A stretch of DNA of 64,000 bases from the NCBI RefSeq assembly GCF_009914755.1, contig NC_060944.1; one strand, written 5' to 3'. Positions within the stretch are counted from its first letter, which is position 1. Every line of letters starts with the position of its first letter. A program made the position numbers and the translations under genes. The DNA is from the human T2T-CHM13v2.0 reference genome, Homo sapiens. The notes beneath the pieces were generated by a model. That model did no database searches, was not told the origin of the DNA, and saw only the letters and a list, made by a program, of their open reading frames with translations. Positions 7,138 through 9,164 of this stretch are shown in pieces.

Positions 7138-7320
7138 TAGCAATTAACTACTTCTTCTTCTTTTTTTTTTTTTTTAAAGCGAAATCAAGTTTATTAAGAA
7201 AGTAAAAGAATAAAGGAATGGCTACTCCATAGGCAGGGTAGCCTCGAGGGCTGCTGGTTGGTTATTTTTATGGTTATTTCTTGATCATATGCTAAATAAG
7301 AGGTGAATTATTCATGAGTT

Positions 7321-7350
7321 TTCCGGGAAAGGGGCAGGCAATTCCTGGAA
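7321..7350. promoter_or_regulatory. Tandem GAS (STAT1-type) motifs in MER41 U3
   Basis: TTCCGGGAA 7321-7329 and TTCCTGGAA 7342-7350; MER41B is known to carry tandem GAS sites. Confidence 0.7.
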
Positions 7351-7730
7351 CCGAGGATTACTCCTCTTTTTAGACCATATAGGGTAACTTTTGGATGTTG
7401 CCATGGCATTTGTAAACTGTCATGGTGTTGGTGGGAGTGTCTTTTAGCATGCTAATATATTATAATTTGCATATAATGAGCAGTGAGGATGACCAGAGGC
7501 CACTTTCATCCCCCTCTTGCTTTTGGTGGGTTTCAGCTAGTTCTTTACCACATCCTGTTTATCAGCCGCTCTTTGTGGCCTGTATCTTGTGCCAACCTCC
7601 TATCTCATCCTGTGACTAAGAATGTCTAACCTCCTGGGAATGCGGCCCAGCAGGTCTCAGCCTCATTTTACCCAGCTCCTATTCAAGATGGAGTCGCTCT
7701 GGTTGGAACCCCCTCCATTTTACAAGGCGA

Positions 7731-8036
7731 TTTTTTTTTTTTTTTTTTTTTTTTGAGACAGAGTTTCACTCTTGTTGCCCCGGCTGGAGCGCAATGGCCC
7801 GATCTCACCTCACTGCAACCTCCACCTCCCAGGTTCAAGTGATTCTCCTGCCTCAGCCTCCCGAGTAGCTGGGATTACAGGCATGCGCCACCACGCCCAG
7901 CTGATTTTGTATTTTTAGTAGAGACGGGGTTTCTCTATGTTGGTCAGGCTGGTCTTGAACTCCCCACCTCAGGTGTCCCACCTGCCTTGGCCTCCCAAAG
8001 TGCTGGGATTACAGGTGTGAGCCACTGCGCTCAGCC
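7731..8036 (-). mobile_element. AluS (Sp/Sq-like) inside the MER41 retrocopy
   Basis: Full antisense Alu; imperfect TSD tacaaggcgatt/tgcaaggggatt. Confidence 0.95.
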
Positions 8037-8444
8037 ATTGCAAGGGGATTCTTAATCCTAAGGGTTGCAGAGGGACGAAGGTACATCTTCTGCAGCTTCT
8101 TTAGGCTGAATAGGGGCCACGATATTCCTGCTTAACTATTAGGGTCTCTCGTCTCCAGGGTAGAGAGGCGCTCAGTCAGACAGCATTGGTATGCTGAGGG
8201 CCATTCATAACTCCAAAATTTCAACAAAAGGTGATATCCAAAGTCGACCAATTGGTGCTGCAGTCTATTTCCTTTGGGTCAGGGTTCTCTCCAGTATTGT
8301 CCCTTTGAGGTTTGCTAGGAAGAGGTTACTGGAAAGGGATTCTGATCTAGACTCCAAAGGAGGGTTCCTGGATCTGGTGCAAGAAAGAATTCAGGGTGAG
8401 TCCACAGAGGAAAACGAAAGCAAGTTTATTAAGAAAGTAAAGGA

Positions 8445-8745
8445 GGCAGGGTGCAGTGGTTCACATCTGTAATCCCAGCACTTTGGGAGGCTGAGGTGGG
8501 CAGATCATGAGGTCAAGAGATCAAGACCATCCTGGCCAACATGATGAAACCCCGTCTCCACTAAAAATACAAAAATTAGCTGGGCATGGTGGCGCACGCT
8601 TGTAGTCCCAGCTACTCGGGAGGCTGAGGCAGGAGAATCGCTTGAGCCCAGGAGGTGGAGGTTGCAGTGAGCCAAGATCTTGCCATTGCACTCCAGCCTG
8701 GTGACAGAGCGAGACTCCGTTTAAAAAAAAAAAAAAAAAAAGAAA
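8445..8745 (+). mobile_element. AluS (Sc-like) inside the MER41 5' R region
   Basis: Full sense Alu with A tail. Confidence 0.95.
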
Positions 8746-9164
8746 AGAAAATGGCTACTCTGTAGGCAGAGCAGCCATGATTAACTTCATAATGCCTTTT
8801 GGTCATTCCTATTTTAACTCCTGTGGATTGCAAGGTCGTGTCTTTTGTCCATTTAAAAAACGGGAGTAGGGTGTTGTCCTCTTCATATTGATGGAGAAGA
8901 AATTTTAGATCTTATGTTCTTCATTATATGACAAATAGTATTTTTTGAATTTTAATTTTGTTTGTGGTGCTTCCTGATACACAGAAGGTAGGCAGATGAC
9001 TATAGTCAATATATCAGTTTTTCTTTTTTGAGTCTTTCCTTTTGTCTTTTTCTCCTCTTGCTTGAAAAGTCATACTTCTCTTGATATCAGAAAAAATATT
9101 AATCTATATTTTATCCTAGTTTTTCATGGCTTCATTAAAATAATAGCTCTTTGATTGATTTGAA

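What the first reader, a model, noticed from the sequence alone, without database searches (positions are those of the whole stretch)
7161..8776. Spliced, polyadenylated MER41 endogenous-retrovirus transcript copied back as a processed pseudogene
Seen on the minus strand: the element starts at ~8776 inside the LTR, with no upstream U3. The same position in the other LTR copy (7243) lies ~20-28 nt downstream of a TATA-like ataaaaataa (7262-7271), as expected for a transcription start. R-U5 runs to 8324, then an ~85-nt leader, an abrupt join at 8238/8237 (GACTTTGG|ATATCACC), ~200 nt of 3' internal sequence, and U3-R. The copy stops 14 nt after AATAAA (7190-7195) at a poly(A) (7161-7175), with no second U5. 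Only R (~65 nt) is duplicated, which is mRNA architecture rather than proviral. From memory of MER41/MER4-group internal consensus, the join corresponds to donor TTTGG/GTAAG and acceptor CAG/ATATCACC, i.e. a precise splice. Established: L1-mediated processed copies are known for HERV-W. Inference: MER41 made an ~1-kb spliced RNA that L1 machinery retroposed. Standard annotation would split this into unrelated LTR and internal fragments.
Basis: partly seen in the sequence, partly recalled or inferred. Interest (0 to 1): 0.8.

Follow-up and report, generated by a model that had tools for sequence, protein, structure and literature searches.

The report
Spliced MER41 RNA retrocopied by L1
This 1.6-kb stretch is a dead DNA copy of a short spliced RNA from an ancient endogenous retrovirus (MER41), most likely pasted in by the LINE-1 machinery, and it shows that this retrovirus family, like its relative HERV-W, was spread by LINE-1 as well as by its own replication.

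Summary
On the minus strand the element starts at 8776 inside the LTR with no U3. It runs R-U5 (to 8324), an 86-nt leader, an abrupt join at 8238/8237, about 210 nt of 3' internal sequence and U3-R. It ends 14 nt after AATAAA in A15 (7175-7161), with no U5. Two later Alus interrupt it.

The join is a splice. In unspliced genomic copies the leader continues GT in 16 of 21, mostly GTAAGT. Exon 2 is preceded by AG in 16 of 17.

Seven other loci carry the same join, the same start nucleotide and no 5' U3. Six stop at the R poly(A) site. Three have 17-19-nt target-site duplications that shuffled flanks match in at most 3 of 2000 trials. The window copy's own duplication is weak.

The phenomenon is wider. 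Two 5'-truncated unspliced copies have poly(A) and 16-19-nt duplications. Ten further 5' ends lack U3. A second isoform joins the same donor to another acceptor (about 11 copies).

The kind is known: HERV-W, one HML-2 locus, spliced HERV-H. I found no report for MER41. Verdict: real, interpretation supported, a new member of a known kind, moderate interest.

The parts
8780..8786 (-). Possible 5' copy of the target-site duplication (AGTTAAT). It is separated from the element start by CAT.
   Evidence: the best local match of the flanks is 7 nt, and 656 of 2000 shuffles scored as high, so it is not significant by itself.
8742..8776 (-). 5' R, first part. It starts at the inferred transcription start (GGCTGCTCTGCC) and has no U3 upstream.
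   Evidence: All 8 spliced copies start within about 2 nt of this base. Ten further unspliced-type 5' ends lack U3, most of them starting at this base.
8447..8741 (+). Later Alu insertion inside R, on the plus strand. Its A-tail reads as T19 at 8741-8723 on the minus strand. It is not part of the original retrocopy.
   Evidence: (Alu-Alu repeats I1-I7).
8411..8446 (-). 5' R, second part, with AATAAA at 8430-8425. Here transcription reads through into U5.
   Evidence: 8444-8411 matches the 3' R (7209-7176) at 91%..
8324..8410 (-). U5, ending CCAGTAACC at 8324.
   Evidence: Provirus-type 3' LTRs match this part up to query position about 115-130, while retrocopy 3' ends do not.
8238..8323 (-). 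Leader (exon 1, post-U5 part, 86 nt), ending at the splice donor ...GACTTTGG.
   Evidence: in 16 of 21 unspliced-type copies the next bases are GT (mostly GTAAGT). Two have ATAAGT. Three use the same donor joined to acceptor 2.
8237..8238 (-). Exon-exon join (GACTTTGG|ATATCACC).
   Evidence: the identical join occurs in 8 loci. One-sided matches in other loci break at query position 209-212.
8038..8237 (-). Exon 2: 3' internal sequence downstream of acceptor 1. Its last 12-13 nt (8050-8038) are one copy of the second Alu's target-site duplication.
   Evidence: 16 of 17 unspliced copies aligned from base 1 have AG (15 CAG, 1 TAG) and a pyrimidine tract just upstream..
7731..8037 (-). Later Alu insertion in the same orientation as the element, with its A-tail at 7754-7731. 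It is not part of the original retrocopy.
   Evidence: Flanking repeat 8050-8038 / 7730-7719.
7709..7730 (-). Second copy of the Alu target-site duplication (7730-7719) and a polypurine-tract-like end of the internal region (AAAATGGAGGGGG, 7722-7709).
   Evidence: other copies read AAAAGGGAGGGGG(AAAA) and then the LTR start TGTCAGAGG.
7244..7708 (-). U3 of the 3' LTR, with its first roughly 11-15 nt missing. It holds two TTCNNNGAA motifs (7350-7342 and 7329-7321) and a TATA-like box (7271-7262).
   Evidence: The LTR's true start was defined from six proviral 5' LTRs.
7176..7243 (-). 3' R (68 nt) with AATAAA at 7195-7190. It ends at the poly(A) site and no U5 follows.
   Evidence: The same end point is seen in L002, L003, L004, L005, L006 and L008.
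7161..7175 (-). Poly(A) tail, A15, followed by (GAA)3.
7143..7149 (-). Possible 3' copy of the target-site duplication (AGTTAAT).
   Evidence: weak, see above.

Best explanation
A MER41-type endogenous retrovirus was transcribed from the start site in its 5' LTR, about 28 nt downstream of the first base of a TATA-like box. The RNA was spliced from a donor 86 nt past U5 (TTTGG|GTAAGT) to an acceptor about 210 nt upstream of the 3' LTR (CAG|ATATCACC). That removed almost the whole internal region. The RNA was then polyadenylated 14 nt after the AATAAA in the 3' R. The resulting RNA of about 1.0 kb, apparently non-coding, was reverse-transcribed and inserted here by LINE-1 target-primed reverse transcription. 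This left R-U5-leader|exon2-U3-R-A15, with no 5' U3 and no 3' U5. Two Alus landed in it later. Shown here: the mRNA architecture, the GT..AG borders in unspliced copies, recurrence of the same join at 8 loci, and LINE-1 hallmarks (poly(A), 16-19-nt A-initiated duplications, 5' truncation) in sibling and related copies. Inferred: that LINE-1 was the enzyme at this particular locus, and the date of insertion.
For: Architecture and coordinates.

Same join elsewhere. One search scored 40 of 1867 candidates: the self match, 7 matches that span the join, and 32 that match one side only and break at the join. One search scored 40 of 223 candidates and found the same 8 spanning matches.

Sibling ends. 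All 7 siblings have only about 60-70 nt of R upstream and no U3. Six stop at the R poly(A) site and one (L007) is truncated. Provirus-type 3' LTRs run on into U5.

Splice signals. The donor is GT in 16 of 21 unspliced-type leaders. AG precedes exon 2 in 16 of 17 copies.

Duplications in siblings: L003 17 nt (0/2000 shuffles as high), L004 17 nt (3/2000), L005 19 nt (0/2000). L002 and L008 have shorter ones that abut the ends.

Independent support. Unspliced 5'-truncated copies L015 (16-nt duplication, 0/2000) and L076 (19 nt, 3/2000) have A-tails and no U5. A second isoform joins the same donor to a second canonical acceptor.

Sources. The spliced copies do not cluster on a tree of U3-R (6 label changes against a shuffled mean of 6.4), and one lies in the short-LTR subgroup (SH-aLRT 92). 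This argues for several source proviruses.
Against: The window copy's own target-site duplication is weak (7 nt; 656/2000 shuffles as high), so the LINE-1 route at this locus rests on analogy with its siblings plus the A15 tail. One sibling (L006) has neither a poly(A) tail nor a duplication, and one (L007) is 3'-truncated. No orthologous empty site could be examined. The name MER41 and the U3/R/U5 labels come from recall and from comparing copies, not from a Dfam or Repbase alignment. No transcript evidence for the spliced RNA was available.
Confidence: 0.92

Rival explanations
1. A provirus with an internal deletion that later lost its 5' U3 and 3' U5 by unrelated deletions. On this view the join is a DNA-level deletion and not a splice.
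For: Old ERV copies are often rearranged. The window copy's duplication is weak. One related chr3 copy (L084/L017) has odd ends without a poly(A).
Against: Eight loci share the same three break points to within about 2 nt: the R start, the join and the poly(A) site. The join falls exactly on GT..AG borders. Poly(A) tails follow R. Independent deletions would not repeat like this.
Confidence: 0.02
2. The spliced RNA was packaged and copied by the retrovirus's own reverse transcriptase and integrase. The RNA keeps R, the region just 3' of U5 where a primer-binding site would lie, and the polypurine tract.
For: Spliced ERV copies made by a retroviral route are described for HERV-H (Goodchild 1995, as summarised in passages of PMC11998498). 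The RNA retains the cis elements needed.
Against: Retroviral reverse transcription rebuilds two full LTRs and gives short duplications of fixed length. Here 8 of 8 spliced copies lack 5' U3 and 7 of 8 lack 3' U5 (the eighth is truncated). Tails are poly(A) and duplications are 16-19 nt of variable length.
Confidence: 0.02
3. One founder copy spread by segmental duplication, or by re-transcription of a retrocopy, rather than by repeated retrocopying of RNA from proviruses.
For: Two hits of the second isoform on chrX lie 0.1 Mb apart on opposite strands with identical matched letters. They may be a duplicated pair.
Against: The flanks of the 8 copies are unrelated and each has its own duplication. 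Pairwise identity is only about 76-82%. The copies are scattered over a star-like tree and over two LTR length classes. A retrocopy has no upstream promoter.
Confidence: 0.02
4. A retrocopy of a host (for example lncRNA) transcript that merely uses pieces of an ERV as exons.
For: ERV-derived exons are common in lncRNAs, and the window lies in an intron of a predicted lncRNA according to the hub's gene table.
Against: The RNA begins at the LTR's own start site and ends at the LTR's own poly(A) site. It holds nothing but ERV sequence. The same RNA arose from more than one LTR subtype.
Confidence: 0.02

Closest known systems
HERV-W processed pseudogenes (Pavlicek et al. 2002; criteria as restated by Grandi et al. 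2016, PMC5016936, passages read)
   Same: 5' LTR reduced to R-U5, 3' LTR reduced to U3-R, a poly(A) tail, variable-length target-site duplications and frequent 5' truncation. All are seen here in this copy and its relatives. MER41-int is listed in the same HERVW9 supergroup as HERV-W's HERV17 (Kojima 2018, PMC5753468; Vargiu 2016, PMC4724089).
   Different: A different ERV group with a different LTR. The window copy comes from a heavily spliced RNA of about 1 kb, not from near-full-length RNA. HERV-W has 135 such copies by Grandi 2016, whereas I counted only a sample here.
HERV-W processed pseudogenes that lack the 'pre-gag' region (Grandi et al. 2020, PMC6995185, passages read)
   Same: Processed pseudogenes in which a segment bounded by GT..AG in the proviruses is missing, read as splicing before LINE-1 copying.
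   Different: There the intron is a short pre-gag segment and the genes remain. Here the intron removes nearly the whole internal region.
HERV-K(HML-2) locus 2q32.1 (Schmitt et al. 2013, PMC3590776, passages read)
   Same: A retrocopy of an HML-2 transcript shown against the provirus's splice donor and acceptor sites, with a poly(A) stretch and a 13-nt duplication resembling the LINE-1 target site.
   Different: A single locus of a betaretrovirus-like group, with partial Rec/Env-like coding sequence. Here there are at least 8 copies of one isoform, about 11 of another, and no coding potential.
Spliced HERV-H copies in genomic DNA (Goodchild et al. 1995; known to me only through citing passages)
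   Same: Genomic copies of a spliced ERV RNA.
   Different: As summarised, these were found among cloned HERV-H proviruses. The MER41 copies lack 5' U3 and 3' U5 and carry poly(A). I could not read the original paper.
Small, largely spliced ERVWE1 (HERV-W) transcript of about 1.5 kb (Gimenez et al. 2010, PMC2853125, passage read)
   Same: A short subgenomic RNA from a related ERV group in which most of the internal region is spliced out.
   Different: That one is known as an RNA in placenta. Its splice sites were not compared with those found here, and for MER41 I have only the DNA copies and no RNA data.

Membership tests
LINE-1-mediated processed pseudogene of an ERV transcript (Pavlicek 2002 criteria as given in Grandi 2016) | 5' LTR is R-U5 only (no U3) | tested here: met
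   the element starts at 8776 at the R start and no U3 lies anywhere else in the window. The same holds in 7 of 7 siblings.
LINE-1-mediated processed pseudogene of an ERV transcript | 3' LTR is U3-R only (no U5) | tested here: met
   R ends at 7176, 14 nt after AATAAA, and no U5 lies below it. Provirus-type LTRs used as controls run on into U5.
LINE-1-mediated processed pseudogene of an ERV transcript | Poly(A) tail directly after R | tested here: met
   A15 at 7175-7161. Tails are also present in L002 (short), L003, L004 (A24), L005 (A11) and L008 (A11). L006 has none.
LINE-1-mediated processed pseudogene of an ERV transcript | Variable-length target-site duplication | tested here: inconclusive
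   Window copy: 7 nt exact, or 9 nt with a 3-nt gap, and 656/2000 shuffles scored as high. Met in relatives: L003, L004, L005 (17-19 nt, at most 3/2000), L015 and L076 (16-19 nt, at most 3/2000).
LINE-1-mediated processed pseudogene of an ERV transcript | TT/AAAA-like insertion motif | tested here: inconclusive
   Read by eye. The duplications of 7 relatives begin AAAA, AGAA, AAAA, ATTA, GGAA, AAAT and AAAT, which is purine-rich and close to the motif. The window's nick site cannot be placed because its duplication is uncertain.
Retrocopy of a spliced (not genomic) RNA | The missing segment is bounded by GT..AG in unspliced copies | tested here: met
   GT in 16 of 21 unspliced-type leaders. 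AG in 16 of 17 copies, preceded by a pyrimidine tract.
Retrocopy of a spliced (not genomic) RNA | Same join at independent loci | tested here: met
   8 loci on chr1, 4, 10, 12, 14, 15 and 20 (twice), with unrelated flanks.
MER41 (Repbase/Dfam: MER41B-type LTR with MER41-int) | Alignment to the family's library sequences | not testable with these tools
No Dfam or Repbase library is held.
MER41 (Repbase/Dfam: MER41B-type LTR with MER41-int) | STAT1-type motif in U3 (present in MER41B, lost in MER41A, per Russ & Iordanskiy 2023, PMC9963469) | tested here: inconclusive
   Two TTCNNNGAA motifs lie at 7350-7342 and 7329-7321. That these are the published MER41B sites is recalled, not tested.
Ordinary provirus (retroviral integration) | Two complete LTRs (U3-R-U5 at both ends) | tested here: not met

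The most novel reading that the evidence does not exclude
MER41 is a second human ERV group that LINE-1 copied on a family-wide scale, not just once. In the sample taken here, 18 of 25 distinct leader-bearing 5' ends lack U3. At least 8 copies derive from one spliced isoform. About 11 junction matches point to a second isoform that uses the same donor. 5'-truncated unspliced copies also carry LINE-1 hallmarks. If this is unreported, it contradicts the review statement that HERV-W is the sole HERV group mobilised by LINE-1. It points to a property shared by the HERV-W/9/MER41 lineage, such as germ-line expression or RNA features that LINE-1 captures. It also means that some complete MER41 U3 regions, here with both STAT1-type motifs intact, were scattered by LINE-1 rather than by the virus itself.
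Probability: 0.5. Interest if true: 0.6.

Novelty: new member of a known kind. Interest (0 to 1): 0.48.

Why it matters
Three reasons. (1) Annotation: repeat annotation would most likely report this as separate LTR and internal fragments. Recognising it as one RNA-derived unit changes how such MER41 'LTR' pieces are dated and counted, because a U3-R piece ending in poly(A) is neither a solo LTR nor a provirus end. (2) ERV biology: the copies are fossils of the virus's transcripts. They fix the transcription start, the poly(A) site, one splice donor and two acceptors of a retrovirus reported to be 45-60 million years old, for which no RNA can be sampled in its original form. (3) LINE-1 biology: a 2017 review calls HERV-W the only HERV group mobilised by LINE-1. 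A related group showing the same behaviour makes the question of why these ERV RNAs were captured testable by comparison. The retrocopies also carry a whole U3, with interferon-type motifs, to new sites.

Tried and rejected
- Junction pattern with 3 mismatches: 50 hits against 165 for the reversed control, so it is noise. Among the 30 loci cut out, only the known copies had family context. Twenty hits were never fetched.
- Exact degenerate pattern across join 1: 28 hits against 11 for the control, 7 of them already known. I checked 7 of the 21 others. None is a spliced copy. One (L095) is an unspliced acceptor with a mutated AG. Fourteen remain unchecked.
- Search for the 3' end of the R-initiated copy L068: 6 kb fetched downstream (L091) held no exon-2 or LTR match.
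- chr3 candidate for a full-length unspliced retrocopy (L084 plus L017): its 3' LTR breaks off about 30 nt into R with no poly(A) and no duplication, so it is inconclusive.
- Placing the acceptors relative to env: 13 forward open frames of at least 60 aa in a 4.7-kb donor-to-acceptor interval gave no Pfam family. Twenty of 66 open frames between the two acceptors gave only sub-threshold hits. Frames containing stops were not accepted by the tool. What the introns once encoded therefore stays open.
- Coding potential of the spliced RNA: no ORF is conserved across the join. Only a 10-aa ORF (5 of 7 copies) and a 15-18-aa ORF (6 of 7) recur in exon 2.
- tRNA scan of 7000-9000: nothing.
- Pavlicek 2002 and Chuong 2016 are not held.
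Full report
**What is in the sequence.** All coordinates below are read on the minus strand.
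- The element begins at 8776 with GGCTGCTCTGCC.
- The same motif begins at 7243 in the downstream LTR, 28 nt after the first base of a TATA-like ATAAAAATAA at 7271-7262.
- From 8776 the sequence runs through R, which is split by a plus-strand Alu at 8741-8447.
- U5 follows and ends in CCAGTAACC at 8324. An 86-nt leader then runs to 8238.
- At 8238/8237 the sequence changes abruptly (GACTTTGG|ATATCACC) to about 210 nt of 3' internal sequence: 8237-8038 plus 7718-7709. This part is interrupted by a second Alu (8037-7731) with its own 12-13-nt duplication.
- A purine tract at 7722-7709 is followed by U3 (7708-7244, lacking its first roughly 11-15 nt) and then R (7243-7176).
- R ends 14 nt after AATAAA (7195-7190) in A15 (7175-7161).
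- BLAST of the four parts against the whole 64-kb window found no U3 beyond 8776, no U5 below 7176 and no other piece of the family.

Without the Alus the unit is about 1.0 kb.

**The join is a splice.** A search of the window's own genome with 8446-8038 scored 40 of 1867 candidates.
- Besides the self match, 7 loci match straight across the join.
- The other 32 match one side only and stop at query position 203-214, which is the join.
- Where the sequence upstream of exon 2 is kept, 16 of 17 copies aligned from the first exon-2 base have AG there (15 CAG, 1 TAG, 1 GG), behind a pyrimidine tract. An 18th copy aligns from base 5 and is also preceded by CAG.
- Where the leader runs on, 16 of 21 copies continue with GT, mostly GTAAGT, and 2 continue with ATAAGT.
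- The remaining 3 continue with a different shared sequence, described below.

**Sibling copies and how they were inserted.** The seven siblings are L002 chr10, L003 chr20 (1.5 Mb away), L004 chr1, L005 chr14, L006 chr15, L007 chr12 and L008 chr4.
- They have the same join.
- They start within about 2 nt of the same base, with unrelated flanks and no U3.
- Except for the truncated L007, they stop at the same point in R, with no U5. Provirus-type 3' LTRs run on into U5.
- A-tails follow R in L003, L004 (A24), L005 (A11), L008 (A11) and, as a short tail, L002. L006 has none.
- Flank comparison against 2000 shuffles gave clear duplications that abut both ends: L003 17 nt (0/2000), L004 17 nt (3/2000) and L005 19 nt (0/2000).
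- The duplications are shorter in L002 and L008, absent in L006, and only AGTTAAT (656/2000) for the window copy.

A junction-centred 120-nt query scored 40 of 223 candidates and returned the same eight copies. An exact degenerate pattern gave 28 hits against 11 for the control, 7 of them known. Of the 21 others I could check 7, and none is a new spliced copy. The count is therefore 'at least eight'.

**The phenomenon is wider than this isoform.** I de-duplicated the loci in hand to 73 places and corrected three script misreadings by eye.
- Of 25 distinct leader-bearing 5' ends, all 8 spliced ones lack U3.
- Of the 17 unspliced-type ends, 10 also lack U3, most of them starting at the same R base, and 7 have a full U3.
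- Among the 16 unspliced copies whose 3' LTR end could be read, 13 run into U5 and 3 (L009, L015, L076) stop at the poly(A) site.
- L015 and L076 are complete 5'-truncated retrocopies. Homology to the other copies starts abruptly about 770 nt and 83 nt upstream of acceptor 1 respectively.
- The bases just upstream of those points repeat after the A-tail: 16 nt in L015 (0/2000) and 19 nt in L076 (3/2000).

These counts come from the top-scoring matches to a retrocopy query. They are a sample, not family proportions.

**A second isoform.**
- Three loci (L074, L075, L078) join the same donor to AGTCAAGAAAAC.
- In at least ten unspliced copies this sequence lies about 1.05-1.1 kb (up to 1.4 kb) upstream of acceptor 1. 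It is preceded by TTTGTTTTGTTTTTCAG, a second canonical acceptor.
- A 25-nt pattern across this join, allowing 3 mismatches, gave 14 genomic hits against 3 for the control.
- I examined ends for three only. L074 starts at the R base without U3. L078 lacks U3. L075 is 5'-truncated.
- Two isoforms sharing one donor support the splicing reading independently.

**Sources and age.** A tree of the contiguous U3-R part (30 rows) is star-like, with a median terminal branch of 0.097 and 0.10 for the window copy.
- The spliced copies are not clustered: their label needs 6 changes on the tree, against a shuffled mean of 6.4.
- One spliced copy lies inside the short-LTR subgroup (SH-aLRT 92).
- This fits several source proviruses rather than one amplifying copy.
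- With an assumed neutral rate near 2.2e-9 per site per year (recalled), 0.1 corresponds to roughly 45 million years. That fits the 45-60 million years quoted for MER41 in Russ & Iordanskiy 2023 (passage).

**What the RNA was.**
- No ORF is conserved across the join.
- No Pfam family was found in 13 open frames of a 4.7-kb donor-to-acceptor interval, much of which is later Alu insertions.
- None was found in 20 of 66 open frames between the two acceptors.
- The copies therefore look non-coding today, and what the ancestral isoforms encoded is open.

**Comparison with what is in print.**
- Grandi et al. 2016 (passages) restate the criteria for an ERV processed pseudogene: an R-U5 5' LTR, a U3-R 3' LTR, poly(A), a TT/AAAA motif and variable duplications. 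The window copy meets the first three. The last two are met in its relatives.
- Schmitt et al. 2013 say retrotransposed elements were described for HERV-H and HERV-W and add one HML-2 locus (passages).
- Grandi et al. 2020 describe HERV-W processed pseudogenes that lack a pre-gag intron (passages).
- Lam et al. 2025 call spliced ERV insertions rare (passage).
- Kojima 2018 and Vargiu 2016 place MER41-int in the same supergroup as HERV-W. Vargiu 2016 did not separate processed pseudogenes from proviruses (passages).
- Two full-text searches found nothing reporting MER41 retrocopies. 'MER41' with 'processed pseudogene' gave 14 papers, with neither term in any title or abstract; I read passages of 4 of them. 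A five-term search (MER41, LINE-1, retrotransposed, processed, R-U5; at least four required) gave 5 papers.
- Pavlicek 2002, Goodchild 1995, Costas 2002 and Chuong 2016 could not be read, so an earlier mention cannot be excluded.

**Verdict.** It is a new member of a known kind. Its main value is that it led to a family-level pattern: two spliced isoforms plus unspliced retrocopies of MER41 with LINE-1 hallmarks.

**Limits.**
- The family name was not tested against Dfam.
- No other primate genomes or RNA data were available.
- The window copy's own duplication is weak.
- All censuses are lower bounds or samples.

Noticed in passing
window 7350-7342 and 7329-7321 (minus strand): The retrocopy's U3 keeps two TTCNNNGAA (GAS-type) motifs 21 nt apart, TTCCAGGAA and TTCCCGGAA. 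From recall, these resemble the tandem STAT1 sites of MER41B. No RefSeq enhancer is listed at this place in the hub's table.
   Followed up: partly
L074 (chr10:104.4 Mb), L075 (chr5:123.4 Mb), L078 (chr1:214.8 Mb); 14 pattern hits: A second spliced isoform joins the same donor to an acceptor about 1.05-1.1 kb further upstream (TTTTTCAG|AGTCAAGAAAAC). Two of the hits on chrX, 0.1 Mb apart on opposite strands, have identical matched letters and may be a duplicated pair.
   Followed up: partly
L015 (chr6:132.5 Mb) and L076 (chr4:127.2 Mb): 5'-truncated retrocopies of RNA not spliced at acceptor 1, with A-tails and 16-nt and 19-nt target-site duplications.
   Followed up: yes
L084 plus L017 (chr3:114.067-114.072 Mb): A copy of about 4.9 kb starts at the R base without U3, but its 3' LTR breaks off about 30 nt into R with no poly(A) and no duplication. 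Its origin is unclear.
   Followed up: partly
L005 (chr14:65.77 Mb): This spliced sibling has a tandem partial duplication of about 230 nt of U3-R inside its 3' LTR (query positions 312-544 occur twice). The poly(A) tail and the 19-nt duplication follow the second copy.
   Followed up: no
window 8050-8038 and 7730-7719; 8741-8447; 8037-7731: Two Alus inserted after the retrocopy, one in each orientation. The second has a clear 12-13-nt duplication (AATCCCCTTGCAA / ATCGCCTTGTAA). A third Alu starts about 28 nt beyond the poly(A) tail, near 7132.
   Followed up: partly
L095 (chr13:50.35 Mb): An unspliced acceptor 1 whose AG reads GG (…CTTCTGG|ATATCACC). This made it match the junction pattern by chance.
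   Followed up: yes
window 7160-7151 (minus strand): A short (GAA)3 run directly follows the A15 tail. It may be a decayed part of the tail and it blurs the start of any target-site duplication.
   Followed up: no
L092 (chr1:244.2326-244.2373 Mb): The 4.7-kb donor-to-acceptor interval of this copy is largely later Alu insertions, seen as blocks that hit every other locus many times. Present-day intron lengths of 4.3-4.6 kb therefore overstate the original.
   Followed up: partly
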